From Mytilus trossulus (lineage: Eukaryota), in the NCBI RefSeq assembly GCF_036588685.1, contig NC_086377.1, forward strand, positions 10,354,001 to 10,418,000: a stretch of 64,000 bases of DNA, read 5' to 3'. The position numbers and the translations under genes were made by a program. The notes beneath the pieces were generated by a model. That model was given only the letters and a program-made list of their open reading frames with translations, made no database searches and had not been told where the DNA came from. Positions 1 to 64,000 of this stretch are shown in pieces. Position 1 is the stretch's first letter. Each line of letters begins with the position of its first letter.

Positions 1-2136
1 AAATTAAACAGCATGTGATATTGAAAATTGTATCTGATATTTATTTTTATTAAATGGGAAAATATATATAAAAACAAATTCGTCCCTCTTGTATCCTTTA
101 TTTTATGTTATAAGTGTATAGTGTACGTATACACATTCATGGTACTGTTTTGTTCTAAAATGATACAACCAATTTTAAGGAGCCACTTTATCTATTATAT
201 GAGAATTGATATGGCATTTTGATGTAGCAACATTTTTTTTACATTATTTAAAACATTATGTTATACGGTAAATCTTGCATCTTGTGTTTCATTTTTGCAT
301 TTCATATAGTATGTTATTTTAATTCACAATTGGCGATTCGTACTTATTTATCTTTGATTATAACTAACTTACGTCAACTTGTTTTAGGATGAAAACACCA
401 AAGTGTCTTTCGAAAGTCTTGGTGTATAAAAACAAAAATCACATAAATTATGCAATTCATAATAGAAGTTGTTTGATGTAATGTTGTTATTAAAATAGCT
501 AGGCAATACAATACACACACCCTTTAAATAATGTCACACAGACGTGCGTTACAACTACAAAAGAGTCGGAAGATTTAGAGTATCGTTAAAATGGTATAAC
601 CAGAAATGTTTTAAGCCAATGACATGTGATAACCGGAACAGTTGAAATATTATACCATAAAAAGCATAAGTGAAACAAGTTTACTCAACCTCAGTTCAAC
701 TTACCTTTTGTGGGGTGCAACCTTAGTTCTCAAATGATTTCTTACTTTATAAAGCGACACGTTTAATTCATACACATACTGTTTATCACATTCCAATGTT
801 TGCCATGCTTGATTTATATACTAATTCAATAATGAGACTTCAAAATATTCTACTATCACAACTACCTATGGTATTATTATATTGTCGTTGTTATCTCTCT
901 TTGCTAAATTGTATGCTGTTTTCTGTGGTTAGATTTCTATAAGTTGTCCCTCAAGTTAGTGTAAAGTTAGGCAAACAAATAGGTATGGACATTAGTAATT
1001 TATAATATAAGGTTTTGTTAAAATGGTAGTAGTAGACTATGAGATTATTAAAAAATCATATTAACTTAATGTTGTATCTCAGACAGGTTCGTCTACAAGG
1101 AGACAATGCCATGACAAACAGCAGTATACACAAAAACAAAATCAATATTTTGAGTCATGTTTTATAGCGAAGCGGAACAAATCAGATATTTTCAATTCTT
1201 GAGTTTGACTGTCCCTCTGGTACCTTTCAGCCCTCTTTCATGGATTATACTGCATGAGAGACACTGAAAGCAGAGATGGTGAAATTAAAAAAAGTTTAAC
1301 AACAAATTTATTTGGAGAACTGTTTTAACATATCAACATACTTAAAAATGGTTAAATCAACTCAAGGTCAACTTTATTCGTTTTAGAATTATAATTCAAT
1401 ATTATGCTGTATTTAGTGATTATTTTTTTAATTTTTCAGCGGGTAAGTGTCAAGTAGCAAACAGATAAGTATAGAAAACAATTATATATGCAAGTTATAA
1501 TATAACGATAGTTATACAATGGCGTTAGCAGAGTAGTAAAGTTAAACAATAAACATACTAGTACCATTTTATGAAGAAAATTAGTTTAGAAGTGTTTTAA
1601 ATAAAATTGAGAATGAACATTTGTTAGTAGATAACCATTGTCTGTGTTCTGTTTTTTTTAAAACCCCTTTTATAAAGATTAAAAGTAATATCACAGCGTT
1701 TGTGTTCTTAAATAACAACTCTCAGCTTTTCAAATATGAGAATAAATTGATTAGATTACTTCCGTTTTGAATTTTACCCGAAGTTCAGTATTTATATGAG
1801 TTTACTGTTTGTTAAGTGATTAGACATGATAAGATATTCAAGACTGAGTTTTTAAAGATTGAGCCATGTGCTTGTTTATGTGTACAGCCAGTGTTTTGTA
1901 AACATATGTTGAAAAGAATGTCAGCAATTCTGTATGTTTTGAATTTCCATAATTATTCTGTCTATCAAAAAAAGCAAAACACTTTAAAAATTCAAAACGC
2001 CCGAAGCGCTTATGTTGATAAAAGTACCGTGCACTTGACGAAGCGGAACAAGTCAGACATAATAAGTTCAGATTTTTTGCTACAGTACTATGATTGCTAT
2101 ATGATTACCATAAGCATCATATAAAGAAAACACATA
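1..2136 (+). repeat. Segmental duplication, paralogous to 62119-64000 (tandem gene-scale repeat, ~62 kb offset)
   Basis: Near-continuous direct match by eye, e.g. aaaacagcatgtgatattgaaaattg at 6 and 62124. This copy has an extra ~240 bp around 1580-1818. ORF-track peptides 1816-2124 and 63766-63987 are also similar. Confidence 0.95.
1440..1442 (+). CDS. 3-nt microexon (CGG) of upstream TRIM-like paralog
   Basis: tttttcAG|cgg|GTAAGTgtcaagtagcaaacagataagta; positional paralog of 63542-63544. Confidence 0.75.
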
Positions 2137-2917
2137 CAGAGTTGATGCTATTATGATTTGTTTTGTCTCAAATAAAGGCAACAATAGTATACTGCTGTTC
2201 GAAATTAATAAATTGATAGAGACAGAAAAATACAAATCTGGGTTATAAACTAAAGCTGAGTGAAACGTATCAAATATAAGAGAACTACGTTACAACAGAA
2301 ACTCAACACTAAAATGTAACACACACAGAAACGAACTATACAGTAACAATGGCCATTTTCCCGACTTTGTAAAAGGCATTCTATGAAATAATGGTGGGTT
2401 AAACCTGTTTTTGTGGCATGTCAAACCTCCCGTTTTAATGGTAATGTTAATAATAACATTAAAATGACAACATTACACGACAGGGCTACAATAAATAAAT
2501 CGAAGAAAAATAGGACAGAGAAACAAACGAATAATAGCCATCAAAGGGTACCAGGTTATAAATAAATGTATACGTCAGACGTGCGTTACGTCCTCACAAA
2601 AACTATGCTCAGATGAAAAAAGTTTGAAAGCCAAAACAAGTACAGAGTACAAGAGCGATACACGGTTTGAACAGTCATTTACTTTTTTGGGGGACATAGT
2701 CATATTAACAACTTGGTTTGTCATTTTGTTTTATATTTAAGCATCGTTTAAGTAGCGACAATATTCACACAGTTTCATCTAAGCAACAAACAAGCAATTT
2801 AAAGCAATATTTAAAAATTAGCAAATTGATAACTGATGTTTTGAGAAGATATTTTATGTGTATCTGGATTTTGAAAAGTTTTTCCTTAGATTTCAAACTT
2901 TTTTTTATATTTTTCAG

Positions 2918-2923
2918 TTATCG
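2918..2923 (+). CDS. 6-nt microexon (TTATCG; encodes Y-R) of upstream paralog
   Basis: ttttcAG|ttatcg|GTAAGTgttatgtaacagataagtat; in phase 2 gives Y-R immediately before the CSC exon. Confidence 0.72.
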
Positions 2924-3352
2924 GTAAGTGTTATGTAACAGATAAGTATATAGTGATAAGTTTACCAAACAAAAAGAATGAATAGACATCATATAGCGAA
3001 TTGTGTGTGTGGAATTTAAAGAATGGGAAAATATAAGCCAGTTCCAAAAAAAAAGCATTATTATATAAATGTTATAAGAAGCCAGGCGATGTTTTGAATT
3101 CTGTTTTTTTTTAAGAATAATATCAGATAGTGATGATTACACATATTCCATAATTTTCTCCAATACTTGTGTATTGTGACTTATATTAGAACGTTCATAT
3201 CTTAAGCTTTAAATCCAATGAATATCTTATGTTTCATCATTAAATAACTATACATTTATTTTAACTGTTGAACCAGTTAACGCAAAGTTTAATAAGGATG
3301 TCCGAGCGACATGTTTTATATAATTAAGTGTTGTTTTTTTCTCTCATTGTAG

Positions 3353-3367
3353 ATGTTCATGTGGCGG
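3353..3367 (+). CDS. 15-nt exon encoding C-S-C-G-G (second Cys pair of putative Zn ribbon), upstream paralog
   Basis: ttttttctctcattgtAG|atgttcatgtggcgg|GTAAGTactgcagataaa; phase 2-2. Confidence 0.72.
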
Positions 3368-18267: not shown

Positions 18268-18640
18268 CACTTCCCATGTGAACAATCATTGTTCCCATGG
18301 GAAAACATATTGTTCCCACGGGAACAATTATTGTTACCATGGGAAGAAGTATTGTTCCCATGGGGAAAATTAGTGTTCCCATGGGAAAAAATATTGTTCC
18401 CATGGGAAAAGTTTTTTCCCATGGGAAGAAAAGGAGCTTCCTTGGGAAGAAAAATTCCCTTAGGAAATTTAGAACTTACCATGGGAACAAACAATTTACT
18501 TATGTTTCCATGGGAACTTTAAAGTTCCTATGGGAACTCTAAACTTCCCATGGGAAAAGTAATTTTTCCCATGGGAACTTTCAATGTTCCCAAGCGAAAT
18601 TCTAATATTCCCATGGGCATTATCATATTTCCCATGGGAA
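18268..18640. repeat. ~21-bp periodic minisatellite built on palindrome TTCCCATGGGAA
   Basis: Repeated ttcccatgggaa units; explains ORFs 18267-18542. Confidence 0.9.
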
Positions 18641-21209
18641 ATGTACTTTTAATCAGCTGCAGTGACAAGAGTGACAACAGTGACAAGTTGGAACATATGG
18701 CATTTTTTTAAATTTTTCAATAATCTATCACTGGGCAAATTTTTGTTGTTGATATCTTGTAAACCGACAAAGTCAGATTTGCCGATACCGGAATGGCAAA
18801 TTTGTCATCATATTCAACTGTTTGTAGGCAGATGTGATAAATATTAATTTTGATCCTTTATTTGTCCACACTATAATCTATCTTGATGCGTCTTGGTTTG
18901 GAATTTGTAGATGTCGTCTTTCATTATACTAGATTTTTTTCAAACTACTATTGATCTCATTATGACAAAACTTGACAGAAATGCTTGAAATAACCATTAT
19001 TACAAATGAATAAAGTCACATTCATTTTATTAACAATAATGTCTTCTTCAGGTGTCATACCACCAAATCATGGTACATCACATAGGTCGGGAAAAAATAC
19101 TCCCTTAAATATGACACTTGTAAGTGATTAATCCTACATTTTATTGAAGTAAAACATTTCTGTGTCATACACATATATCTTGGGTATTTCAAAGCACCTT
19201 GAACAAGGACTTCTTTAGGGATGGGTTGACCGCTATATTTGCATGCATATTGTATGTGCCTGTCCCAAGTTATGAGCCTATAGTTCTGTGGTTGTCGATA
19301 GTTCATGTCTGTCGACTTATTTTTTATGTTTTGTAAAAAAAATATAGCTGACCATTCGGTGTTGGTTTTTGTCATTATTCAAGGCCGTATGGTTGCCTAT
19401 AATTGCTAACATTTCAATATTCTAGATGAAAGTCATAAAATGCCGGGAAGCTCACCATATCATATTTGGCATTTGGTTTTCAGTAACTGTCTAATGTACA
19501 TTTAATTCGAATTGAATTTAACTCGAATTGACAAGCCCCCCTTCCCCCCAACCCCCCTATATCGCTAAATAATTGGGAATGCCTTAATTGAAAACAGCAT
19601 AACTCGATCTAAAACTAAAAATGCAATTGAGCTGAAAATTTACTTGGCCTCACAGGCACATCTCTAACCGTTAGAATCAGGTATCAGTTATATTTTGGCA
19701 AAAGTTAAAAACGATCAAAAACAGAAGTACTCGAAAACTGCAAATGGAATTGTGCTTCAAATAAAAATTGACATGTATTTCTGATAGTGCTAAATCATTG
19801 TACAAGATTAAAAAAAACATCATTTGTTCCAATCTCAACTTGTCATCTATTTTAATGTATACATTGTATTCGACCTTTTAACCCCACACAGTAGTGGAAT
19901 TTTCATTTATCAAATCGGTGAAAAATGTACACATTGTATATTTATAGCACCGTTAAGGGTTAAAAGATCGAATACAATGTATACACAATTACACATAGAA
20001 TATTGTTTAAACAAAAAAACACGTGTCATGAATTTGAAATAAATTTTCCAACATGCGAGACTTAAATTCTCATACAAAATCGGCTTAATTGGTAACAGAG
20101 ACGGATTTAGCGGGATGGCAGAGGGCCACAGTCTCCCTATTTATATATGTAGCTACATTAAGAAAAACATTTATTTATCTGAGAAAAGTGGTTATTCCTT
20201 TTTACCAGAGAAAAGTATAAAAGTAGTTAAGAAAGCAAGATTTTGATTGGATAAAACAATTAATTAAGCATAAGCTGAATTCATTTTAGCATAAGCTAAA
20301 ATCATTTTTAGCATAAGCTAAAATCATTTTTAGCATAAGCTAAAATCATTTTAGCATAAGCTAAAATCATTTTAGCATAAGCTAAATTTATTTTAGCATA
20401 AGCTAAAATCATTTTAGCATAAGCTAAATTCATTTAAGCATAAGCTGAATATTAATATTTATGACCTTAATTCCGCGCCAAGATTTATGTATAACCTAAA
20501 CAATTCAGCATATGCTAAAATGATTTTAGCTTATGCAAAAATGAATTCAGCTTATGCTAAAATGAGTTTAGCTTAAGCTTAAATGAATTTAGCTTATGCT
20601 AAAATCATTTTAGCATATGCTAAATTATAATATAGCTTATGCTAAAATCATTTAAGCATATACTAAATTCAATGTTTATGACCCTAATTCCGCGTCATAA
20701 GATGATGATTAAAGAAATAACATTATACAGGAAAAAAATCTAAAAAAAATCACTGATGATATGTGATTCTATAAATGCAGAGCAAATATCTTTTTTCCGG
20801 TCGAGAAAATTCATTTTTATATTAGAAATACACCAGTGTGGCTATATGCTTAGTTAAAACTATCAACATATTTACTATATTCACAAATGTAGGTTTGACT
20901 AGCCACACAGTCGGGTTCAACCCACATTTTATTCTTAAAATGTGCTGTATCAGGTCAGGAACATGGTAGATAGTTATCTTGTTGTTCGTATCTAAATCTG
21001 TTTGTGTGTGTCGTTTAGATTTTTGTTGCACTTTGGTGTTTCTGTTGTTTCGTTGCTTTCCTATGATAGTTACATGTATGTGTTTCCATCTGTTTAAGTT
21101 TGTTTCCCGGATCAGTTTTCTCACAAATCGATTGCTGACTTTCGAACAGCGGTATACATATGTTGCTTTTTTGTAAAGATTATTAAAAGATAATAACGGT
21201 TTCAATGCA

Positions 21210-39476: not shown

Positions 39477-40243
39477 ATGGCACAGGCAGCCTCTAAAACA
39501 TGTGAGATATGTATAAGTGCTCCAGGATCCCAATACTGTTTGGAGTGTGAACAAAACTTTTGTGAAAATTGTAAAACTTTTCATAGTAGGCAGAAGATAT
39601 CAAAAACTCACCAGTTCCAGTCTTCCTCTGATGTAATCCCGGAGGGTAAATCGAAATGTAAGGACCACAATGAAGACTTCAGTTTTGTATGCAAAACATG
39701 TGACGTAGTAGTGTGCAGTAGTTGTGTGACTGGCAGTCACACAGGGCATGCTTTTTCCAAGCTTCTGGACAGCATTAAACAGTTAAAGGAGAAGAACACA
39801 ACATACCTACGTATAAGAGTACAACAGTCAACACAAAACATGAAGCAGATAGAAAAAGGTATAAAGGAATTTGATGTCAAGGTGGAAGGAGTAGTCAAAG
39901 CTATTACAAAAGAAGGTACACAACTCAAGGCTATGGTTGATAAATGTGTTGCAGAGATGATTTCATCGGTCAATGATCAATCTAGGAGAGAAAAGGACAA
40001 ATTGACAAAGATCATGGCAGATACTAGAATGGATTTGAAGGCAGGAAGCAATTTAGACATGCAGATTGATGAACTCGACAAGATCAGAAACGATGGTAAT
40101 TTGTTACAGTCTTTACAGAAGCTTACAGATGACAATGCAAAGCTGACGATAAAGCCAATTCCCGAGTTTCCGAACATAAGGTATACTGCGAAGTCCGCAA
40201 CAGATAACGACGTTAAACAACTGTTTGGTAACTACATACTCAG
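39477..40243 (+). CDS. RING-less TRIM-like protein, coding exon 1 (B-box1, B-box2, coiled-coil)
   Basis: CEIC..CLEC..CENC..H..H and CKDH..CKTC..CSSC..HTGH followed by a helical heptad region; donor ctcAG|GTAATT in phase 2. Confidence 0.93.
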
Positions 40244-40475
40244 GTAATTCTACTAAAAATGACTGACAATTTTGTGGGCGTAATACATGCTTTAATATAA
40301 CCATAGTATCTAAATGAGACACGCTTTTTTTTTGCGAAATAAAAATTATGTTGTATTCTGAAATATAAACTTATGTCTTGAAATAATATGACAGACGAAG
40401 GAGTGATAATTCATGAAATACAAATATGCGTTCATTACACATCTATTGTTTAATATTATGGATTCAACATGTGAT

Positions 40476-42164
40476 GAAACCAAATTTCTTGGTTTACTTT
40501 TCGATAAAAAGTTAACCTTTCTACCCCATATCAAAATGTTAAAAGCGAGATGTTTAAAAGCTTTAGATATTTTAAAAGTTGTCGGCAGCACTGACTGGGG
40601 TGCTGATCGCAACATTTTACTTAATTTATATAGATCTCTTGTTAGATCGAAACTAGATTATGGCTCTATAGTGTATGGCTCTGCAAGGAAGTCCTACATA
40701 CAGATTCTCGATGCTGTGCATCACCAAGGTTTGCGTCTCTGTCTTGGCGCATTTAAAACCTCACCAGTTGAGAGTCTGTATGTAGAGGCTGATGAGCACT
40801 CACTCACTGACAGACGTTTGAAGCTTGGACTTCAATATGCTGTCAAACTAAAAGCCCATTCAGATAATCCTGCCTACAGCTGTGTTTTTAATCCGATTTA
40901 TGAAGATATTTTTGCAAAACATGAAAATAAAATTCCTCCGTTAGGTTTACGTTTAAAACCACATTTAGCTTCTTTTGATTTAAAATCTGTTGCTCAAGTT
41001 CAAACTTGCAAATGTCCTCCATGGGAACTTCCCAAACCAAAAATGATATTTGATCTCCGTGAACACAATAAAAATAAAACAAATCCTCTTTTAATTCAGC
41101 AACACTATGCTGAAATTAAAGCCGATTATCTAGATTTTTCAACTGTATATACTGATGGATCAAAAGATGGTGATAGAGTTGCATCTGCTGCTGTCTTCAG
41201 GGACAGAGCTGCAACCCTCCGTTTACCATCTGATGCATCCATCTTTACTGCTGAAGCAGAAGCAATAATTTTGGCTTTGAAATTTATTGCTTCTTCAGAT
41301 AAATCCAAATTTATTATATGTTCGGATTCACTTTCATGTTTACAAGCTATACGAAATACTAAAATTAAAAACCCAACAATCCTGAAAATTTTATATGTAA
41401 TGAGGAATTTAAAAATTCTTCTGAAAGAAATAATATTTTTATGGGTTCCGAGTCATGTTGGAATCCTTGGAAACACAGCTGTAGACCTTGAGGCAAAGAA
41501 TGCCCTGGGTGACCCTCTATCTAACTGTGATATACCATATACTGATTTTAAATCTAATATTAGAGAATATGTTTTTAATATATTGAAAAATAAATGGAGT
41601 AAAAAAGATGATAATAAATTGCATGAAATTAAACCTAGTTTAGGCAAACCTTTTGATAATATTATGTGCAGAAAAGATCAGTGTGTTATTACTAGATGTC
41701 GTATTGGTCATACTAGAATAACACACGAGTATCTTTTAAAAAATGAAGATGAACCACAATGTGTTCCTTGCAACTGCAAGTATACTATTAAACATGTTTT
41801 AATTAATTGTATTGACTTTGCTGATATTCGTAAGAAGCATTTCAATGTCAATAATATGTATGATTTATTTAATGATGTTCCATTTACAAATATTGTTGCT
41901 TTTTTAAAAGAAATTGGAATTTATTATAAAATATAAAAATGTTATTATATTTAAATCGATTTTAATTTTTATCACGTTATTTTACTGTTGATTTTTAATT
42001 GTATATACTCAATTTGCTTTAGTCAATAATTTTAGTATACTGAAGGACTTTTTGTCTTATTTTAAAATATGCTTTAAATTGTAAAAATATTCGAATTAGC
42101 TCTCGCCGCGATATAGCCTTTTTGTGCTAATGCGGCGTAAAGCAACCAACAATCAATCAATCAA
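40476..42164 (+). mobile_element. 5'-truncated I-group (Nimb/I-like) LINE, copy 1, in intron 1
   Basis: ORF with end of RT region, RNase H (YTDGSK..AEAEAI..SDSLS..WVPSHVGILGN..D) and CxxC..H..C knuckle; (TCAA)n tail; 12-bp TSD TCAACATGTGAT (40464-40475, 42165-42176). Confidence 0.95.
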
Positions 42165-42737: not shown

Positions 42738-42794
42738 TGAAATGCGTACACAACAAATCATGAACAAAGAAAGAGAATTGCCTTCATCCAAGAG
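42738..42794 (+). CDS. TRIM-like gene exon 2 (57 nt; EMRTQQIMNKERELPSSK)
   Basis: tttatcttttatcAG ... aagAG|GTAGGG; open and symmetric phase 2-2, continuing the exon 1 frame. Confidence 0.78.
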
Positions 42795-47731: not shown

Positions 47732-47946
47732 ATGGTGAACTGTGATACTCTTTGTGGGTAAACAGCTTCTGTTCTACACTGAACCATAGAAAACATCTCT
47801 GATGACATGGTGAACTGTGATACTCTTTGTGGGTAAACAGCTTCTACACTGAACCATAGGAAACATCTCTGATGACATGGTGAACTGTGATACTCTTTGT
47901 GGGTAAACAGCTTCTGTTCTACACTGAACCATAGGAAACATCTCTG
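47732..47946 (+). repeat. Three tandem ~70-75-bp repeats
   Basis: atggtgaactgtgatactctttgtgggtaaacagcttct... x3. Confidence 0.9.
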
Positions 47947-48205
47947 AAGTAAAGCAATATATCTTTCTAATAAAAAAAATGTATCTCTGTCAAGGTGTAA
48001 GTTGATTTTTTTTTTTTTATAAATTATCATTTCAATTCATTCGAGATTGTCTAATTTGGTTTATGACTCTAGTATATATTTCAAATGCTTTTATGATATT
48101 TTTGCACTGTTTATGTGTGTATCAGTTAGTAATAGCTTGTTGGATTTTAATATTATCTTAGAATAGAGTAAATTTTAAGTCAATCAATTGTGTTGCTTAT
48201 TATAG

Positions 48206-48271
48206 TGATTACAAACAGGATGTGATACCAAAGGAGCAAGGAAAATGCCTGTACAGATGTGTCAAGTGTCG
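48206..48271 (+). CDS. TRIM-like gene exon 3 (66 nt; DYKQDVIPKEQGKCLYRCVKC, first Cys pair)
   Basis: tgttgcttattatAG ... tgtCG|GTAAGT; open, phase 2-2. Confidence 0.82.
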
Positions 48272-50546: not shown

Positions 50547-50656
50547 CATCAGACTCTTTTAAACTGAGTCAAGCGCGCGAGGTTTGTTTAGACTTAAAAC
50601 TAGATTCAACACACCAATGGTTATAAAAATGTTGGGTATGTTTCTCATATTTAAAA

Positions 50657-53574
50657 TGTAGGCAAGCCCGACGAACATCCTGGAAAAAATTTGTCTCGGG
50701 GATTACATCTCGCACTCCGATGACAAAAGTTTGGAATATGGTAAATAAAATAAAAGGTAAAAATTCTAAAGCCACTGTAAAACATTTGAAAGACGGCAAT
50801 ACTTTATTAACATCTGAAAAGGATATTGCCAACAAACTTGGTGAAACTTTTGCAAAGTCTTCTTCTTGTAACAACTACAGGGAAGACTTTAAAAAAGTTA
50901 AAAAACAAAAAGAAAAAATTAAATTAAACTTTAAATCAAAAAATGGTGAAAATTATAATAAACTATTTTCTCTTGAAGAACTTAAAACATCTCTGTCAAA
51001 AGCCCATGATACAGCTTGTGGGCCTGATAATATTCACTACCAACTCTTAAAACACTTGCCAGATTCCTCGCTAGAAGCTCTCTTGCAGCTCATGAATAAC
51101 ATCTGGGAATCTGGTGATTTACCATCAATCTGGAAGCTTGCAACCGTCGTGCCTATTCCAAAACCAAGTAAAGATCATACGGATCCTATTAATTATCGAC
51201 CAATTGCTCTTACCAGTTGTGTCTGTAAAACACTCGAACGGATGGTCAATGATCGACTTGTTTGGTTCCTGGAATCCAATGGGCTATTAGCCAATATCCA
51301 GTGTGGATTCCGACAGGGTCGCAGTACTCTTGATCATCTTGTTCGATTCGAATCATTTGTCCGTAATGGTTTTGCGAAAAATGAGCATGTGGTGTCGGTC
51401 TTTTTCGACCTTGAGAAGGCCTATGATACTGCATGGAAATATGGTATTTTAAAAGATTTATTTGATATGGGGTTGAAAGGCAATATGCCTAATTTTATTT
51501 CTAATTTTCTCTCTAACAGACAATTTAATGTTAGAGTTTATCGACCATGTCTGATCTGTATGATCAAGAGATGGGTGTCCCTCAGGGCAGTATTTTATCT
51601 GTAACATTATTTAGTCTTAAAATTAACAGCCTTGTTGAAGTTTTAAAAAGTAATATTGAAGGTTCATTGTACGTTGATGATTTTTTAATATGTTACAGAG
51701 GCAAAAATATGAATAACATAGAAAGACAATTACAACTATGTCTTGGAAGAATTGAAAAATGGGCCTCGGAAAATGGTTTTAAATTTTCCACGTCAAAAAC
51801 GGTCGGGATGCATTTTTGTAACAAAAGAAAATTGCATCTTGATCCAGAACTAACTTTGTACGGCAACCCAATTAAAATGGTTGATGAAACCAAATTTCTT
51901 GGTTTACTTTTCGATAAAAAGTTAACCTTTCTACCCCATATCAAAATGTTAAAAGCGAGATGTTTAAAAGCTTTAGATATTTTAAAAGTTGTCGGCAGCA
52001 CTGACTGGGGTGCTGATCGCAACATTTTACTTAATTTGTATAGATCTCTTGTTAGATCGAAACTAGATTATGGCTCTATAGTGTATGGCTCTGCAAGGAA
52101 GTCCTACATACAGATTCTCGATGCTGTGCATCACCAAGGTTTGCGTCTCTGTCTTGGCGCATTTAAAACCTCACCAGTTGAGAGTCTGTATGTAGAGGCT
52201 GATGAGCACTCACTCACTGACAGACGTTTGAAGCTTGGACTTCAATATGCTGTCAAACTAAAAGCCCATTCAGATAATCCTGCCTAAAGCTGTGTTTTTA
52301 ATCCGATTTATGAAGATATTTTTGCAAAACATGAAAATAAAATTCCTCCTTTAGGTTTACGTTTAAAACCACATTTAGCTTCTTTTGATTTAAAATCTGT
52401 TGCTCAAGTTCAAACTTGCAAATGTCCTCCATGGGAACTTCCCAAACCAAAAATGATATTTGATCTCCGTGAACACAATAAAAATAAAACAAATCCTCTT
52501 TTAATTCAGCAACACTATGCTGAAATTAAAGCCGATTATCTAGATTTTTCAACTGTATATACTGATGGATCAAAAGATGGTGATAGAGTTGCATCTGCTG
52601 CTGTCTTCAGGGACAGAGCTGCAACCCTCCGTTTACCATCTGATGCGTCCATCTTTACTGCTGAAGCAGAAGCAATAATTTTGGCTTTGAAATTTATTGC
52701 TTCTTCAGATAAATCCAAATTTATTATATGTTCGGATTCACTTTCATGTTTACAAGCTATACGAAATACTAAAATTAAAAACCCAACAATCCTGAAAATT
52801 TTATATGTAATGAGGAATTTAAAAATTCTTCTGAAAGAAATAATATTTTTATGGGTTCCGAGTCATGTTGGAATCCTTGGAAACACAGCTGTAGACCTTG
52901 AGGCAAAGAATGCCCTGGGTTACCCTCTATCTAACTGTGATATACCATATACTGATTTTAAATCTAATATTAGAGAATATGTTTTTAATATATTGAAAAA
53001 TAAATGGAGTAAAAAAGATGATAATAAATTGCATGAAATTAAACCTAGTTTAGGCAAACCTTTTGATAATATTATGTGCAGAAAAGATCAGTGTGTTATT
53101 ACTAGATGTCGTATTGGTCATACTAGAATAACACACGAGTATCTTTTAAAAAATGAAGATGAACCACAATGTGTTCCTTGCAACTGCAAGTATACTATTA
53201 AACATGTTTTAATTAATTGTATTGACTTTGCTGATATTCGTAAGAAGCATTTCAATGTCAATAATATGTATGATTTATTTAATGATGTTCCATTTACAAA
53301 TATTGTTGCTTTTTTAAAAGAAATTGGAATTTATTATAAAATATAAAAATGTTATTATATTTAAATCGATTTTAATTTTTATCACGTTATTTTACTGTTG
53401 ATTTTTATTTGTATATACTCAATTTGCTTTAGTCAATAATTTTAGTATATTGAAGGACTTTTTGTCTTATTTTAAAATATGCTTTAAATTGTAAAAATAT
53501 TCGAATTAGCTCTCGCCGCGATATAGCCTTTTTGTGCTAATGCGGCGTAAAGCAACCAACAATCAATCAATCAA
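50657..53574 (+). mobile_element. 5'-truncated I-group LINE, copy 2, in intron 3 (frameshift plus premature stop)
   Basis: RT motifs (YRPIALTS, QCGFR, FFDLEKAYD, GVPQGS, YVDD), RNase H, knuckle; frameshift near 51540; TAA at 52285-52287; (TCAA)n tail; 12-bp TSD TCATATTTAAAA (50645-50656, 53575-53586). Confidence 0.95.
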
Positions 53575-53960: not shown

Positions 53961-53981
53961 AAAGGAAATGAGAACTGATAT
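53961..53981 (+). CDS. TRIM-like gene exon 4 (21 nt; (R)KEMRTD)
   Basis: tctgtttcatctttcAG|a AAG GAA ATG AGA ACT GAT AT|GTAAGT; phase 2-2. Confidence 0.8.
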
Positions 53982-54988
53982 GTAAGTATGATCTACGTCT
54001 ATTGTAAAAGACAAATATTTAAAGTTCGCAATTCGTCAAATTGTTCCAAAAAATAAGCTTACAATAGATTGTGACACGACGATGGCTAGGTCTAAGTGTT
54101 CTTTGTTTTTTTATTAAACGTGTTGTTTGGCTTTTTTTAATTGTTTCTTTGCTATGGTGTATGTTTTTTGGGTTTTTATGATTTTCGAATGCCCATTGTA
54201 TTTAGTTTAAAACATATTTCGAGAAAATAAACATTTAACGTATATTATACTGTAATCGAAAACAAGTCCCATTTTAAGCCATTGTATCTTTTATTTTGCT
54301 CACCCGTGCATATTGTTGTCAATGTATTCGAATCATATGATACTGTAATACGATTAATAGGTTCAGCTAGTTATAACACAAAGTGTAATCCATCATTTTC
54401 TACATAAGTAAATGCTTGTACAAAAACCGGGGCGAAAGATACCAGAGTGACGGTCAAACTTATATATCTATACTAAACTGGGAACCACATGGGTTAGAAA
54501 TATAAAAAGAAACAAGAACATCAAAAAAAAAAACAATCATTGTTATACTATAGAGATACAAAGAAACACATATCAAACAAAACAATCATGTTGATGTACT
54601 TACGTTGTGAGATTAATTGCACATATATAAATACCAGGTTTTACAAATTGAAAATTCATGAAAAAAAGATTAATGCATAATGGTGTCTCGTTGATAAAGA
54701 CACTCTGCGACGTTTACTATGTGTCCAGTTTATGTGAACTGTGGTTAAAAGTTTTTTCTATCTAGTTACCATATCGGATAGGTAAATCAAATGTTGCTCG
54801 GACAAAACACTTAGTAAAAATATAGAAGTGTCATGTCGAATGTTTGTTCATTTGTCACATTCCTATTTATACAGCACGTAAACATTGCAGGGTTTGCACC
54901 GCACACTCACCATGTTACTGCATTACTTGTTCAATTACATTTAGTCTATTTATCAATTTTTTTATAATTAATTATTTGATATTTTCAG

Positions 54989-54991
54989 ATT
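54989..54991 (+). CDS. 3-nt microexon ATT
   Basis: attttcAG|att|GTAAGTgtcaagtagaaaacagataagtat. Confidence 0.75.
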
Positions 54992-55321: not shown

Positions 55322-55324
55322 CGT
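55322..55324 (+). pseudogene. Decayed CGT microexon
   Basis: ttgttGAG|cgt|GTAACT: acceptor CAG>GAG and donor +5 G>C relative to intact copies. Confidence 0.55.
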
Positions 55325-56258
55325 GTAACTGTCAAGTAACAATCAGAAAGGTATAATTATATATACTGTAGTTCATTATACAAAGAGAGTAATACAAAGA
55401 TGTTAAGTAAAACAATAAACATGTCATGATTGTGATGTATGGTAGCACCCGTTATGTCTACAAAAGAGGCGGAAGATACCAAGAGACATCTAAACGCATA
55501 ACGTTATAATTTAGTACCCAGAACGACAAAAAGACAATCAAATGAATACAAAATACAACAATCAGGATTGCGTTGTTTTCTATATGTATCTTCATCTTCA
55601 TTACATAACGTGTGATTAATTCAGTAATAAAAGTAAAACAATACACATGTCATTAACGTGATATATGTGAGACTCGCGGGTCGTCTACAAATGAGGCGAA
55701 CGATACCAAAAAGACATTCAAATGCATTGGTCGAATATAAACTGACACCGCCATGGCTAAATCCTAGTGCTACAAAAACACCAACAACAGTCGTCAAACA
55801 AATTGTGTGATTTCATGCACTGATTAATACATTTACCGTCATTGGAAATGCTGAAAGCCGAAATGTATAAACCTGTATAGTTAACAAACCTGTTGTCAGT
55901 TTGTTTTAGATTTATGAGTTTGACTGTCCCTTTGGTATCTTTCGTCTCTCCATTGAAGTATATGTCCTTGGAAAAAACACATCAATATGATTATATCGAC
56001 CTGACGTCCATTTCTTTTTTAGATTTCTTAACAAATTATAAATGTACAAAGCGCCAAATCACACAACTTTTACATTGCAATAACTGGCATCATTATATCT
56101 TATTGACTATACTTTTCAAAAATATGACAAAAACAAACTGTCATCTACAAATGTTCTCCTATCACATTACTACTTATTCCAATAATTATATTGGAGATAA
56201 CTTAATTCTTTTCTAAATGGTATGCTGTATTTAATGGTTATTAATTTGATTGTTTCAG

Positions 56259-56264
56259 ATCGAT
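56259..56264 (+). CDS. 6-nt microexon ATCGAT
   Basis: tgtttcAG|atcgat|GTAAGTgtcaagtagcatacagataagta. Confidence 0.75.
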
Positions 56265-56815
56265 GTAAGTGTCAAGTAGCATACAGATAAGTAATTTACA
56301 CTTATATAATATGCACTTTAAAATGTGATAACATGTATATAACGGTGTTAGAAGAGTTGCAAAGTTAAACAATAAACATACCATTGTAAGAGATAAATTT
56401 TCTCAGTACCGCTGTTCGAAAGTCGTATATCGAATGAGAGAAAAAAAGTAGGTGTCACGTAGAAAACAGATAAGTATAGCGTATAAAGATATATGTAGGT
56501 CATTATATAAAGATATCTGTACCAATTAGTTAAGTAATAGTGAACATTAGATAAACCTTTAAAATGATGTATGGTAGACGTGAGCATAGCTCTAAAATTT
56601 GAAATCATCAACATAACTATTAGGCAAGATGAGAAAACAGAATCTAACTCATAGTAATGACTTTACTTTTGAATTATCTGATAGAACACTCAATAGTCTC
56701 GAAATGATGTACTTTTATTGCATTGCTTTTTTAATTAAATCCAATAACGATTTTTGCTTTTGCCTGAATGATTTGCTGTTCACTATAATGATTAATTTGA
56801 CTGATTTTTGTTCAG

Positions 56816-56818
56816 CGT
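56816..56818 (+). CDS. 3-nt microexon CGT
   Basis: tttttgttcAG|cgt|GTAAGTgtcaagtaacaaacagaaatgtat. Confidence 0.7.
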
Positions 56819-57325
56819 GTAAGTGTCAAGTAACAAACAGAAATGTATAATTATATAAACTGTAGTTCATTATATAAAGAGAGTAATACAAATATGTTAA
56901 GTAAAACAATGAGCATGCGTATAATATGATGTATGATAGCCCTGCGTTATGTTTACAAGAGAGGCGGGAGATACCAAGAGACATTCAAACGCTTAACGTT
57001 ATAATTTAGTACGACGAAAAGACAATCAAATGAATACAAAAAAACAAACAATAATATGATTATATCGACCTGACGTCACTTTTGTTTAGGTTTCTTAACA
57101 AATTATAAATGTACAAAGCGCCAAATCACACAACTTTTACATTGCAATAACTGGCATCATTATATCTTATTGACTATACTTTTCAAAAATATGACAAAAA
57201 CAAACTGTCATCTACAAATTTTCTCCTATCACATTACTATTTATTCCTATAATTATATTGGAGACAACTTAATTCTTTTCTGAATGGTATGCTGTATTTA
57301 ATGGTTATTTATTTGATTGTTTCAG

Positions 57326-57328
57326 GCG
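57326..57328 (+). CDS. 3-nt microexon GCG
   Basis: tgtttcAG|gcg|GTAAGTgtcaagtagcatacagataagta. Confidence 0.72.
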
Positions 57329-57879
57329 GTAAGTGTCAAGTAGCATACAGATAAGTAATTTACACTTATATAATATGCACTTTAAAATGTAATAATATGT
57401 ATATAAAGGTGTTAGAAGAGTTGCAAAGTTAAACAATAAACATGCCATTGTGAGAGATAAATTTTCTCAGTACCGCTGTTCGAAAATCGTATATCGAACG
57501 AGAGAAAACAAGTAGGTGTCACGTAGAAAACAGATAAGTATAGCGTATAAAGATATATGTAGGTCATTATATAAAGATATCTGTACCAATTAGTTAAGTA
57601 ATAGTGAACATTAGATAAACCTTTAAAATGATGTATGGTAGACGTGAGCATAGCTCTAAAATTTGAAATCATCAACATAACTATTAGGCAAGATGAGAAA
57701 ACAGAATCTAACTCATAGTAATGACTTTACTTTTGAATTATCTGATAGAACACTCAATAGTCTCGAAATGATGTACTTTTATTGCATTGCTTTTTTAATT
57801 AAATCCAATAACGATTTTTGCTTTTGCCTGAATGATTTGCTGTTCACTATAATGATTAATTTGACTGATTTTTGTTCAG

Positions 57880-57882
57880 CGT
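57880..57882 (+). CDS. 3-nt microexon CGT
   Basis: tttttgttcAG|cgt|GTAAGTgtcaagtaac. Confidence 0.7.
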
Positions 57883-58389
57883 GTAAGTGTCAAGTAACAA
57901 ACAGAAATGTATAATTATATAAACTGTAGTTCATTATATAAAGAGAGTAATACAAATATGTTAAGTAAAACAATGAGCATGCGTATAATATGATGTATGA
58001 TAGCCCTGCGTTATGTTTACAAGAGAGGCGGGAGATACCAAGAGACATTCAAACGCTTAACGTTATAATTTAGTACGACGAAAAGACAATCAAATGAATA
58101 CAAAAAAACAAACAATAATATGATTATATCGACCTGACGTCACTTTTGTTTAGGTTTCTTAACAAATTATAAATGTACAAAGCGCCAAATCACACAACTT
58201 TTACATTGCAATAACTGGCATCATTATATCTTATTGACTATACTTTTCAAAAATATGACAAAAACAAACTGTCATCTACAAATTTTCTCCTATCACATTA
58301 CTATTTATTCCTATAATTATATTGGAGACAACTTAATTCTTTTCTGAATGGTATGCTGTATTTAATGGTTATTTATTTGATTGTTTCAG

Positions 58390-58392
58390 GCG
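58390..58392 (+). CDS. 3-nt microexon GCG
   Basis: tgtttcAG|gcg|GTAAGTgtcaagtagc. Confidence 0.72.
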
Positions 58393-58943
58393 GTAAGTGT
58401 CAAGTAGCATACAGATAAGTAATTTACACTTATATAATATGCACTTTAAAATGTAATAATATGTATATAAAGGTGTTAGAAGAGTTGCAAAGTTAAACAA
58501 TAAACATGCCATTGTGAGAGATAAATTTTCTCAGTACCGCTGTTCGAAAATCGTATATCGAACGAGAGAAAACAAGTAGGTGTCACGTAGAAAACAGATA
58601 AGTATAGCGTATAAAGATATATGTAGGTCATTATATAAAGATATCTGTACCAATTAGTTAAGTAATAGTGAACATTAGATAAACCATTAAAATGATGTAT
58701 GGTAGACGTGAGCATAGCTCTAAAATTTGAAATCATCAACCTAACTATTAGGCAAGATGAGAAAACAGAATCTAACTCATAGTAATGACTTTACTTTTGA
58801 ATTATCTGACAGAACACTCAATAGTCTCGAAATGATGTACTTTTATTGCATTGCTTTTTTAATTAAATCCAATAACGATTTTTGCTTTTGCCTGAATGAT
58901 TTGCTGTTCACTATAATGATTAATTTGACTGATTTTTGTTCAG

Positions 58944-58946
58944 CGT
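58944..58946 (+). CDS. 3-nt microexon CGT
   Basis: tttttgttcAG|cgt|GTAAGTgtcaagtaac. Confidence 0.7.
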
Positions 58947-59456
58947 GTAAGTGTCAAGTAACAAACAGAAATGTATAATTATATATACTGTAGTTCATTA
59001 TATAAAGAGAGTAATACAAATATGTTAAGTAAAACAATGAGCATGCGTATAATATGATGTATGATAGCCGTGCGTTATGTTTACAAGAGAGGCGGGAGAT
59101 ACCAAGAGACATTCAAACGCTTAACGTTATAATTTAGTACGACGAAAAGACAATCAAATGAATACAAAAAAAACAAACAATAATATGATTATATCGACCT
59201 GACGTCATTTTTATTTGGTTTCTTAACAAATTATAAATGTGCAAAGCGCCAAATCACACAACTGCTACTTTTCAATACAGTAACTGGCATCATTATATTT
59301 TATTGAATATACTTTTCAAAAATATGACAAAAACAAACTGTCATCTACAAGTTTTCTCCTATCACGTTACAATTTATTCAATTAATGTATTGAAGATAAC
59401 TTAATTCGTTGTTAATGGTATGCTGTATTATATGGTTATTTATTTGATTATTTCAG

Positions 59457-59459
59457 TTG
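59457..59459 (+). CDS. 3-nt microexon TTG
   Basis: tatttcAG|ttg|GTAAGTttcaagtagcaaacagataagtat. Confidence 0.72.
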
Positions 59460-59994
59460 GTAAGTTTCAAGTAGCAAACAGATAAGTATAACATGCACTT
59501 CAAAATGAATTAATTTGAATATAATGGTATTAGTAGAGTTGCAAAGTTAAACAAAGAACATAACATTTAAGTGAGAAATATTCTCAATACCGCTGTTCGA
59601 AAGTCGTTTATCGAATGAGAGAAAACAAGTGAGTGTCAAGTAGAAAACATACAGGTATAGCGTATTATTGTGTATGTAGGTCATTATATAAAGGTATTTG
59701 TACCAATTAGTTAAGTACTAGTGAACATTAAATAGCCCATTAAAATGATGTATGGAAGACGCGATCATAGCTTTAAAATGTGAAATCATCAAAATAACTA
59801 TGAGGCAAGATGAGAAAACAAAATAAAACTCATACTAATGACTACTATTGAATTATCTGACAGAAGACTCGATAGTCTCAAAGTATTGTACTTTTATTGA
59901 ATTACTTTTTTAATATAATCCAAAGACGATCTTTGCTTTTGCCTGAATGATTTGCTGTTCACTATAATGATTAATTTGACTGATTTTTGTTCAG

Positions 59995-59997
59995 CGT
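59995..59997 (+). CDS. 3-nt microexon CGT
   Basis: tttttgttcAG|cgt|GTAAGTgtcaaggaacaaacagaa. Confidence 0.65.
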
Positions 59998-60858
59998 GTA
60001 AGTGTCAAGGAACAAACAGAAAAATATAATTATATATACTGTAGCTCATTATATAAAGAGAGTAATACAAGTATGTGAAGTTAAACAATAAGCCTGCTTA
60101 TAATATGATATATGATAGCCGTGCGGTGTGTCTACAAAAGAATCAGAAGATACCATGAGACATTCAAATGCATAACGTAATTGTACCAAGAACGACAAAA
60201 ATACAATCAAATGATTACAAAATACAACAATCAGGATTGTGTTGTTTTCTATATATCTACATTACATAAAGTGTTATAAGTGAAGTAAAGTTAAACAATA
60301 AACATACCATAAATATAATATATGTGAGACTCGTTCCGTCTAATAAAATGGCGAAAGATATCAAAGAGAGATTCAACAGCATTGGTCGGATATAAACTTG
60401 CACCGCTATGGCTAAATCCTAGTGAGACATACAAATAAACAACAGTTTATAAAACAAAACGTAATCTGATGTTATTTCCTGTCTTCTAGATTAATCTTCA
60501 TTGAAAATACAAAATCAAAAATGGGTAAAACTTATGACATATACTAACCAAAACTGTTGAAGTTATTTGGCATCATTATTTAATTTAAATTGAATATATG
60601 ATTGTCCTTTTAAATTACCGATTCTTGATAAGTCTTCACCAGATAGTGACGTTCAAAGACATGGTATCCTGCTCAGCCCTGTCATAGAATTAATTGTCTC
60701 CTTTGTATTAGTCAATCAGGAGTATAATAGAAGAAACTGTCATTTAACAAAATGTTTTTTTTATATTTTTATTACGTATTCAACTAATTCCATTAAAGTT
60801 GGTTAATTCATTGCAGAATTGTATGCTGTAATTTATAATTATTATTATTTGTTTACAG

Positions 60859-60861
60859 CTT
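60859..60861 (+). CDS. 3-nt microexon CTT
   Basis: tttgtttacAG|ctt|GTAAGTtttaagtagaaaacagataagtat. Confidence 0.75.
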
Positions 60862-62064: not shown

Positions 62065-62070
62065 GGGCAT
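62065..62070 (+). CDS. 6-nt microexon GGGCAT
   Basis: tttctttttttcAG|gggcat|GTAAGTaccaaccatataagtat. Confidence 0.7.
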
Positions 62071-62118: not shown

Positions 62119-64000
62119 AAAATAAAACAGCATGTGATATTGAAAATTGCATCTGATATTTTAGTAAATGGGAAAATATATTAAAAAAAAGTTCGTCCCT
62201 CTTTTATCCTTTAGTTTATGGTATAAGTGTATAGTGTACGTACACACATTCATGGTACTGTTTTGTTCTAAAATGATACAACCCATTTTAAGGAGCCACG
62301 TTATATATTATATGAGAATTGATATGGCATTTTGATGAAGCAACATTTTTTTACATTATTTAAAACGTTATGTTATACAGTAAATCTTGCATCTTGTGTT
62401 TCATTTAGGTACTTTATATAGTATGTTATTTTAATTCACAATTGTCGATTCGTACTTATTTATCTTTGATTATAACTACCCTACGTCAACTTGTTTTAGG
62501 ATGAAAACACCAAAGTGTCTTTCGAAAGTCTTGGTGTATAAAAACAAAAATCACATAAATTATGCAATTCATAATAGAAGTTGTTTGATGTAATGTTGTT
62601 ATTAAAATAGCTAGGCAATACAATACACATACCATTTAAATAATGTCACACAGACGTGCATAACGACTACAAAAGAGTCGGAAGATTTAGAGTATCGTTA
62701 AAAATTGTAAAACCAGAAATGTTTTAAGCCAATGACATATGATAACCGGAACAGTTGAAATATTAGACCATAAAAAGCATAAGTGAAACAAGTTTACTCA
62801 ACCTCAGTTCAACTTAACTTTTGTGTGGTGCAACCTTAGTTCTCAAATGATTTCTAAATCTATAAAGCGACACGTTTAATTCATACACATACTGTTTATC
62901 ACATTCCAATGTTTGCCATGCTTGATTTATATACTAATTCAATAATGAGACTTAAAAATAATCTACTATCACAACTACCTATGGTATTCTTATATTGTCG
63001 TTGTTATCTCTCTTTGCTAAATTGTATGCTGTTTTCTGTGGTTATATTTTTATAAGTTGTCCCTCAAGTTAGTGTCAAGTTAGGCAAACACATAGGTATG
63101 GACATTAGTAATTTATAATATAAGGTTTTGTTAAAATGGTAGTAGTCGACTATTAGATTAATAAAAAAAATCATATCAACTTAATGTTGTATCTCAGACA
63201 GGTTCGTCTACAAGGAGGCAATGCCATGACAAACAGCAGTATACACAAAAACAAAATCAGCATTTTGAGTCATGCGTTATAGCGGAGCGAAATAAATCAG
63301 ACATTTTCAGTTTGACTGTCTGGTACCTTTCAGCCCTCTTTCATAGATTATACTGCATAAGAGATACTGAAAGCAAGGATAGTGAAAGCCAAAAATTATA
63401 AAAACAAATGTATTTGAAGAACTACATTAACATATCAACATATATAAAAATGGTTAAATCAACTCAAAGTCAACGTTATTCGTTTTTGAATAATAATTCA
63501 ATATTATGCTGTATTCAGTGATTATTTATTTATGTTTTCAGCAAGTAAGTGTCAAGTAGCAAACAGATAAGTATAGAAAACAATTATATATGCAATTTAT
63601 AATATAACGATAGTTATACAATGACGTCAGTAAAGCAGTAAAGTTAAACAATAAACACGTGTACTAGTACCATTTTATGAAAAGAAATATTTATATAAGA
63701 CATGATAAGATATTCGAGACAGAATTTTTAAAGCTGAGACGAATGTTTGTTTATGTGTACAGCCCGTGTTTTGTATACATATGTTGAAAAGAATGTCGGC
63801 AATTCTATACGTTTTGCATTTCCAAAATTATTCTGTCTTTCCAAAAAAGCATAACACTTTAAAAATTCAAAACGCCCAAAGCGCTTTTTGGGTTAAAGTA
63901 ACGTGCACTTTTACGAAGCGGATCAAGTCAGACATAATTTGTTCAGATTTTTTGCCACATTACAATGATTACCATAAGCATCATTGAAACAAAACACATA
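62119..64000 (+). repeat. Segmental duplication, paralogous to 1-2136
   Basis: Direct match to the window start. Confidence 0.95.
63542..63544 (+). CDS. 3-nt microexon CAA
   Basis: tgttttcAG|caa|GTAAGTgtcaagtagcaaacagataagtat; paralog of 1440-1442. Confidence 0.75.

What the first reader, a model, noticed from the sequence alone, without database searches (positions are those of the whole stretch)
55984..60230. Microexon birth by 1064-bp tandem duplication, with the exon changing faster than its flanks
Seen: each repeat unit carries two microexons. At the first slot the units have ATCGAT, GCG, GCG and TTG in nearly identical intronic context (tgtttcAG..GTAAGTgtcaagtagc); the second slot stays CGT. 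A decayed CGT copy sits at 55322. Inference: the repertoire expands by unequal crossing-over, diversifies at the exon itself while keeping 3n length, and loses units by splice-site decay. Copy number probably differs among haplotypes.
Basis: partly seen in the sequence, partly recalled or inferred. Interest (0 to 1): 0.72.

Follow-up and report, generated by a model that had tools for sequence, protein, structure and literature searches.

The report
One-codon exons build mussel TRIM loop
In a mussel, dozens of neighbouring TRIM-like genes write one short loop of their protein from chains of 3- to 9-letter exons that are gained by local DNA duplication and vary far more than the DNA around them, which likely gives each gene a different binding surface, possibly for recognising pathogens.

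Summary
The repeat is real, but it is one piece of a larger system. It lies in the introns of a RING-less B-box/B-box/coiled-coil (TRIM-like) gene of a Mytilus mussel, one of at least 40 tandem paralogs. Each ends in CxxC-loop-CxC, a likely zinc ribbon, whose loop is coded by 2-9 phase-2 microexons (194 of 194 are 3, 6 or 9 nt; 35 different loops in 36 genes, none with a stop). Spliced contigs from four public studies show that such exons are joined; in the one contig assignable to a paralog the CGT slots are skipped. Across paralogs the used slots are up to 7 times more diverse than their flanks, almost only at amino-acid-changing positions; skipped slots are invariant. A second cluster (50% identical proteins) has its own 3-nt arrays. 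An immune role is inferred; this gene's own expression and copy number are untested. No description found in print; the scan noted a 12-nt analogue in an octopod (e1-8664734).

The parts
39477..40243 (+). Exon 1: B-box, B-box, coiled coil (255 codons plus 2 nt, phase-2 donor)
42738..42794 (+). 57-nt linker exon (absent from the assigned X6 contig of a paralog)
48206..48271 (+). 66-nt exon ending in CxxC, first half of the likely zinc ribbon
   Evidence: spliced in 4 runs
50627..53343 (+). Reverse-transcriptase-like (LINE-type) ORFs inserted in the intron
   Evidence: the family label is my reading of the translation
53961..53981 (+). 21-nt exon before the array
   Evidence: follows the Cys exon in contigs
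54875..54877 (+). CAC pseudo-slot (weak donor, invariant in 25 of 25, skipped in X6)
54989..54991 (+). ATT microexon slot (used, variable)
55322..55324 (+). Decayed CGT slot, decayed throughout the family
55985..60231 (+). Tandem array of four ~1064-bp units of mixed age
56446..58685 (+). Most recent event: exact duplication at lag 1064 (1176 identical bases) that added one GCG and one CGT slot
56259..56264 (+). Slot-X microexon ATCGAT, shared with the paralog slot at C5:9973037
56816..56818 (+). CGT slot, likely skipped
57326..57328 (+). Slot-X microexon GCG (would add Arg)
57880..57882 (+). CGT slot, likely skipped
58390..58392 (+). Slot-X microexon GCG, duplicate (would add a second Arg)
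58944..58946 (+). CGT slot, likely skipped
59457..59459 (+). TTG microexon, an older slot shared across paralogs
59995..59997 (+). CGT slot, likely skipped
60859..60861 (+). CTT microexon
62065..62070 (+). 6-nt microexon GGGCAT (variable slot)
63542..63544 (+). CAA microexon. A 6-nt exon, the 15-nt CxCGG exon and the last exon follow 297, 1393 and 2595 bases past the window's end
1440..3367 (+). Tail of the upstream paralog: CGG (1440), TTATCG (2918) and its 15-nt exon (3353)

Best explanation
The array is part of a microexon chain that is spliced to code the loop between the two cysteine pairs of a predicted zinc ribbon at the end of a RING-less TRIM-like protein, and the family likely uses it as a germline diversifier of a binding surface. 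Shown: gene layout, phase-2 3n exons, splicing of such exons in paralogs, skipping of CGT slots in one assigned contig, and excess amino-acid-changing diversity in used slots. Inferred mechanism: unequal crossing-over between the ~0.5-1.5 kb intron-exon-intron units, within a gene or between neighbouring paralogs, adds or swaps single residues. Because the introns are in phase 2, each exon gives two bases of a codon and the next exon the third, so gain or skipping can also change the neighbouring residue (68 of 194 simulated single skips do, 3 make a stop). Slots fall silent by decay of the splice site or, likely, of a downstream A[G/T]ATAAG element. The coiled coil would dimerise and present two ribbons whose aromatic- and Arg-rich loops would bind targets, most likely pathogen molecules or pathogen effectors in the cytosol.
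For: Frame and domains: (329-codon open frame for this gene). Family: 40 Cys-exon matches on one chromosome, 8.13-11.78 Mb, a lower bound. Splicing: all 14 contigs laid from 4 runs of 4 studies cover only the Cys exon, with no intron depth, and five of the six loose ends behind it run into the 21-nt exon and short exon-like letters. The X6 contig reads 21-nt exon, ATT, GCT, CTT; its 21-mer and Cys-exon start match only the paralog at C5:10085527 among 41 loci. Its 60 letters between Cys exon and last exon equal 21+24+15, which fits the six slots that carry the motif and leaves out CAC, both CGT and GGACTT. Diversity: slots ATT, X, E6, F3 have pi 0.34, 0.35, 0.23, 0.41 against flanks 0.05, 0.05, 0.04, 0.14 (P 0.002, 0.0003, 0.001, 0.01); skipped CAC and CGT slots 0-0.015. 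22 extra alleles at 14 codon positions 1-2 against 2 at 7 wobble positions; pN/pS 0.31 for exon 1 against 0.90 for Cys plus 21-nt exons. Loops: 35 distinct in 36 genes, W/Y/F/R 33% against 8% in exon 1. Model of the domain: three strands around the cysteines, pLDDT 77. Second cluster on C11 with 3-nt arrays in 6 of 7 genes read.
Against: No transcript of the window's own gene was seen, and it has a LINE-type insertion in an intron. Only one contig could be tied to a genomic paralog; three of its six microexons are inferred from length, and an allele difference could mimic skipping. The loose ends of X4, X7 and part of X8 are blends of 2-3 contigs. Slots TTG and CTT are not more diverse than their flanks (P 0.27, 0.32). 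Copies share ancestry, so the P values are optimistic, and the flank-built tree lowers flank counts. The wobble base is also exon position +1, which splicing may constrain. The pN/pS interval for Cys plus 21-nt exons (0.5-1.8) includes 1, and the two gene sets share only 12 genes. The motif was picked after seeing the CGT slots, so only GGACTT is a partly independent check. Fold matches are weak (best Z 3.5; no Foldseek E below 0.001). No evidence here on ligand, tissue or immune induction. Several paralogs are broken.
Confidence: 0.68

Rival explanations
1. Relaxed constraint only: the microexons are spliced, but the loop is a tolerant linker, and turnover by duplication and gene conversion in a decaying cluster produces variety without selection for new binding.
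For: Several paralogs carry stops or frameshifts. pN/pS of the Cys plus 21-nt exons is about 0.9 with an interval spanning 1. Two used slots show no excess.
Against: Relaxed sites should vary like the introns, not up to 7 times more. The CpG-containing CGT slots are nearly invariant, so CpG decay does not explain slot X. All 36 loops are free of stops against an 8% stop rate for random codons, and they are enriched in W, Y, F and R.
Confidence: 0.17
2. Somatic combinatorial splicing, as in Schistosoma micro-exon genes, is the main source of diversity: each gene yields many loops by skipping microexons.
For: All exons are symmetric and 3n; only 3 of 194 single skips give a stop. The X6 contig lacks the 57-nt exon and GGACTT.
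Against: The skipped slots in X6 are those without the downstream motif, which fits fixed silencing. No two isoforms of one gene were seen. The large differences among paralogs are genomic.
Confidence: 0.1
3. The exact 1064-bp copy in this gene is an assembly artefact, so this gene has one GCG exon; the family picture is unaffected.
For: No difference over 1176 bp; no reads were laid across it.
Against: Like duplications of all ages (85-99%) occur in 22 of 39 genes, and a triplication at 98% is shared by two paralogs that are 99.3% identical. Six genes hold two or more slot-X copies.
Confidence: 0.1
4. The loop binds a rapidly evolving partner that is not from a pathogen, such as gamete or self/non-self proteins or transposon products.
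For: Diversifying selection does not name the partner; no expression data were obtained.
Against: Tandem expansion with fast C-terminal domains is the pattern of antiviral TRIM groups (PMC3137616, abstract). There is no signal peptide in the model, so the protein would be intracellular.
Confidence: 0.15

Closest known systems
TRIM/RBCC multigene clusters with a positively selected C-terminal domain (fish ftr, btr, hltr; TRIM5alpha), PMC3137616, abstract seen
   Same: B-box and coiled-coil body, tandem expansion, conserved N-terminus and fast-changing C-terminus
   Different: No RING in the models scanned; no B30.2/PRY-SPRY; the tail is a ~40-residue CxxC-CxC module with no Pfam match; its variable loop is built from one- to three-codon exons
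Schistosoma micro-exon genes (MEG), PMC10526429 (passages) and PMC4350168 (abstract)
   Same: Chains of mostly 3n short exons, gene duplication, high dN/dS, missed by automatic annotation
   Different: MEG exons are mostly 15 bp (6-81 bp in the text, 3-81 in the abstract) and cover most of a secreted protein, with diversity mainly from alternative splicing. Here 124 of 194 exons are 3 nt, they code one loop inside a folded intracellular domain, and the diversity seen is between paralogs
Avian fast troponin T P exons, PMC7581897 (passages; lead from e1-8664734)
   Same: A lineage-specific series of short exons (up to seven) that lengthens one protein region
   Different: One gene with repeated like motifs under developmental control; no family-wide hypervariable loop
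Single 3-nt microexons such as RPS24 (PMC11703226, passage) and cytohesin-1 (PMC6314551, search listing)
   Same: Exons of one codon are spliced in animals
   Different: They are single regulated cassettes, not serial arrays under turnover

Membership tests
TRIM/RBCC proteins | One or two B-box domains | tested here: met
   PF00643 E 2e-14 and PF22586 E 3e-9, both above their cut-offs
TRIM/RBCC proteins | Coiled coil after the B-boxes | tested here: met
   PF25600 above cut-off; helix 96-204 in the model of a paralog
TRIM/RBCC proteins | N-terminal RING domain | tested here: not met
   No RING hit in exon 1 or in 6 database models. An unannotated upstream exon is not excluded, so the label is RING-less TRIM-like
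TRIM class with B30.2/PRY-SPRY | C-terminal B30.2 domain | tested here: not met
   The tail after the linker is about 55 residues with no Pfam hit
TRIM/RBCC proteins | E3 ligase or antiviral activity | not testable with these tools
   No assay or expression data
Zinc ribbon (rubredoxin-like knuckles) | Two cysteine pairs with beta-hairpin knuckles | tested here: inconclusive
   The CxxC pair is the invariant C-terminal feature of the 40-protein alignment; three-strand model; most top matches are zinc-ribbon proteins (MCM, Sir2, desulforedoxin, Nob1) but at Z 3.5 or less and E above 1
Schistosoma MEG | Chain of symmetric 3n micro-exons | tested here: met
   194 of 194 motif-bearing exons are 3, 6 or 9 nt, all phase 2
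Schistosoma MEG | Micro-exons make up most of the coding sequence | tested here: not met
   12 of 329 codons in this gene; exon 1 has 767 nt
Schistosoma MEG | N-terminal signal peptide | tested here: not met
   The protein begins with a B-box at residue 9; judged from the sequence, no predictor was run
Schistosoma MEG | Many isoforms per gene by exon skipping | tested here: inconclusive
   One assigned contig only

The most novel reading that the evidence does not exclude
Mussels carry a family of about 90 intracellular TRIM-like receptors in two clusters whose recognition loop is a germline, CDR3-like element written one codon per exon. Loop length and sequence are edited by duplicating, swapping and silencing intron-exon units, switched on or off by a downstream intronic element, and possibly re-mixed by exon skipping in single cells.
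Probability: 0.4. Interest if true: 0.9.

Novelty: new variant of a known kind. Interest (0 to 1): 0.78.

Why it matters
It shows a way to evolve a binding loop that has, as far as these searches reach, not been described: every residue sits on its own kilobase-sized recombination unit, so residues can be added, dropped or exchanged between paralogs without frameshifts. It names a hidden, testable candidate recognition family in a farmed shellfish without adaptive immunity. Public gene models mostly stop at the array, so the variable part has been invisible to annotation. It also offers a natural experiment on how runs of 3-nt exons are spliced: more than 190 used and about 90 silent copies that differ in a short intronic motif.

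Tried and rejected
Reading frames: frame 0 has stops in the 21-nt exon. Frame 2 (a furin-like site, phase-1 introns) was my first reading; it was dropped because exon 1 and the Cys exon end in phase 2 and frame 2 has a stop in this gene. Secreted-peptide and defensin readings were dropped once exon 1 was found. Database models P0015 and P0019 match the genomic microexon chain, P0019 with CGT left out; they are not counted as independent, because sister models on the same chromosome are frameshifted and may be ab initio. One search listed no holder on record as RNA. (last exon region) mostly showed unspliced or repeat contigs and no joint. Atlas search: best score 0.87, no lead. The PDB sequence search gave only generic cysteine-motif hits. 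Homolog searches with the tail found only Mytilus models already in hand. The search of representatives gave 5719 hits at E 0.001; three unnamed or unchecked relatives have a complete tail; of 10 relatives looked up, the 7 with a species name are Mytilus. C14 cluster: no clear 3-nt array in 3 of 31 loci read. An upstream TGCTG motif does not separate used from skipped slots. Literature: 'microexon'+'Mytilus' 2 irrelevant papers; 'micro-exon'+'tandem duplication'+'hypervariable'+'immune' none; 'TRIM'+'B-box'+'Mytilus'+'expansion' 6 papers, 5 listed, none on this family in the listing or in the passages read of two; microexon with mollusc terms: none of the 20 listed held 'microexon'; 'microexon'+'exon duplication'+'positive selection'+'gene family' 1 unrelated; none. 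Subscription journals and supplements were not searched and may hold a description. The copy number of this array could not be checked with reads.
Full report
Observation. The window lies at G000:C5:10354001-10418000 of a 1.3-Gb animal genome; the nearest database proteins are labelled Mytilus, the closest M. trossulus. They are not chance matches: across 464 kb around the window, 74 of 78 sense-strand candidates of 1-12 nt are 3, 6 or 9 nt long, against 7 candidates on the other strand.

History of the array. The four units are of mixed age. Unit 4 (TTG) is 87% identical to the others. Units 1 and 2 differ in 27 columns, all within the first ~470, and units 2 and 3 in 6, all after column ~570. 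The newest event is therefore a duplication at lag 1064 with 1176 identical bases, 56446-57621 = 57510-58685, which copied one CGT and one GCG without change. The flanks of the ATCGAT slot are nearest to the ATCGAT slot of the paralog at C5:9973037 (6 differences in about 390 nt, against 14 to the neighbouring GCG slot). The TTG slot and the decayed CGT slot at 55322 occur across the family. So the series ATCGAT, GCG, GCG, TTG does not record change after duplication in place; it is a mosaic, likely made by unequal exchange within and between paralogs (inference).

The gene. Upstream lie a 767-nt exon with two B-boxes and a coiled coil, a 57-nt exon, a 66-nt exon ending in CxxC and a 21-nt exon. 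Past the window lie a 6-nt exon, a 15-nt exon coding CxCG and a short last exon. All introns are in phase 2. With the nine motif-bearing microexons the gene has an open frame of 329 codons. The public model of this gene holds exon 1 only, and many models from other Mytilus species end at or just after the 21-nt exon. No RING or B30.2 was found. A model of the tail of a paralog has three strands around the cysteines, pLDDT 77. Its best structural matches are mostly zinc-ribbon proteins but weak (Z 3.5 or less), so the fold is likely, not shown.

The family. The Cys exon has 40 matches on C5 between 8.13 and 11.78 Mb, a lower bound. Exon 1 has 129 matches: 46 on C5, 47 on C11, 31 on C14 and 5 elsewhere. 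I read 41 C5 loci. They give 35 different loops of 4-13 residues, none with a stop, with W, Y, F and R at 33% against 8% in exon 1 (one search had one more exon through an ad hoc motif variant that I then removed). 22 of 39 genes hold internal duplications of 85-99% identity in this region. On C11, where the proteins are 50% identical, 6 of 7 genes read have 3-nt exon series with a different intronic unit. Three of the 31 C14 loci showed no clear series.

Splicing. Four runs of four studies were laid on a paralog's Cys exon. All 14 contigs cover the exon only, with no depth in the flanking introns, and five of the six loose ends behind it continue with a 21-nt exon and short exon-like letters. 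The tool marks these runs as guessed RNA; the exon-exon joins are what shows splicing. One X6 contig (1100 nt, depth 10.7, taken to be the same record as from equal length, depth and strand) carries a Cys-exon start and a 21-mer found together in only one of 41 loci, C5:10085527. After the 21-mer it reads ATT, GCT, CTT. In the genome that gene has CAC, ATT, GCT, CGT, CGT, GGACTT, CTT, CAACTT, CGG, CCATCA. The contig has 60 letters between the Cys exon and the last exon, which leaves 24 for microexons: exactly ATT, GCT, CTT, CAACTT, CGG and CCATCA. The first three are read, the last three inferred from length, and another subset or allele cannot be excluded. An X8 contig reads 21-mer, TTG, GGGC; X7 gives ATT, GCG, CTG as a blend of two contigs. 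None shows CGT. No contig could be assigned to the window's gene.

Used and silent slots. A[G/T]ATAAG, 6-34 nt past the donor, is present in 28 of 29 ATT, 35 of 35 X, 11 of 14 TTG, 23 of 23 CTT, 26 of 31 E6, 35 of 37 F3 and 35 of 36 G6 copies. It is absent from all 46 CGT, 21 decayed CGT and 25 CAC copies, and also from the 21-nt and 15-nt exons. The four exons that the X6 contig leaves out all lack it. It resembles a second donor site; a role as enhancer is my inference, and the motif was chosen after seeing the CGT slots.

Rates. I kept copies at least 90% identical over the probe and of standard length (X 29 of 35, ATT 25 of 30, E6 15 of 36, F3 26 of 75, TTG 13 of 14, CTT 15 of 43; G6 dropped with 3; many dropped F3 and CTT rows were mis-parsed or dead slots). 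Exon diversity exceeds flank diversity for X (0.347/0.051), ATT (0.337/0.054), E6 (0.225/0.036) and F3 (0.407/0.139), but not for TTG or CTT (P 0.27, 0.32). The skipped CAC and CGT slots have 0-0.015; they contain CpG like GCG does, so CpG decay is not the cause. On a tree built from flanks, slot X needs 0, 5 and 9 changes at its three sites against a mean of 0.68 and a maximum of 6 at 590 flank sites. The variation falls at codon positions 1-2 (22 extra alleles at 14 sites) and not at wobble sites (2 at 7). pN/pS is 0.31 (0.25-0.39) for exon 1 (19 intact of 22 found among 41 loci; the rest lay outside the fetched stretches or the start pattern) and 0.90 (0.5-1.8) for the Cys plus 21-nt exons in 27 genes. 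Shared ancestry makes the P values optimistic.

Mechanism. Each loop residue sits on its own intron-exon unit, so unequal crossing-over changes loop length in frame and moves variants between paralogs; point changes at codon positions 1-2 are kept more often than in introns; units are silenced by decay. In phase 2 a skip can also change the preceding residue: 68 of 194 simulated single skips do so and 3 make a stop. By analogy with TRIM clusters whose C-terminal domain evolves under positive selection (PMC3137616, abstract), the tail would be the specificity module of an intracellular, dimeric sensor or adaptor. B-box zinc-finger orthogroups are listed among bivalve expansions (PMC8382680, passage). 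The partner is unknown, and immunity is the likeliest setting, not a result.

Relation to what is known. The pieces have precedents: Schistosoma MEGs (PMC10526429, passages; PMC4350168, abstract), avian troponin T P exons (PMC7581897, passages) and single 3-nt cassettes (PMC11703226, passage). The gene works like a MEG in its exon chain and like a TRIM cluster in its body, but fails membership of MEGs (no signal peptide, a small share of the coding sequence) and lacks the RING and B30.2 of classical TRIM groups. Ten literature searches found no account of this family's microexons; the library lacks most subscription journals, and supplements were not read. The scan has a 12-nt analogue in an octopod membrane protein (e1-8664734) and a different mussel TRIM family with a PHR tail (e1-9500337), and nothing on this family.

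Verdict. A real feature, larger than reported; new variant of a known kind; interest 0.78.

Noticed in passing
window 50627-53343 and 40410-41933: Reverse-transcriptase-like element in the intron before the 21-nt exon, with a second partial copy just after exon 1 of the same gene.
   Followed up: no
G000:C5:9904201-9921100 and 10127401-10144500: Two paralogs 99.3% identical share a triplication of a 3.15-kb unit with CGG and TTTACA exons (about 98% between units), which would repeat a three-residue motif.
   Followed up: partly
G000:C11, about 28.9-33.4 Mb (L141-L154): A second cluster of about 47 related genes with 3-nt exon series mostly starting with T, a ~450-670-bp unit, and three AAGT words after each donor, like the C5 slots.
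   Followed up: partly
G000:C14:74191601-74211600 (L159-L160): A C14 relative has two similar 15-nt exon candidates 1.3 kb apart: possibly the same process with a larger unit.
   Followed up: no
G000:C5:10340192-10343138 (L049): The upstream neighbour has an exact 1258-bp duplication through a broken exon 1, though its microexon chain is still in frame.
   Followed up: no
window 47732-47947: A 70-bp unit in about three copies upstream of the Cys exon; one or two copies in paralogs.
   Followed up: no
window 12245-12622, 18271-18640, 20258-20671: 21-bp tandem arrays, two of them arranged as inverted pairs, likely foldback or MITE-type repeats.
   Followed up: no
G000:C5:10536900-10551300 (L022-L024), minus strand: A tandemly duplicated LTR-retrotransposon-like pol region between two family members; observed only.
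   Followed up: no
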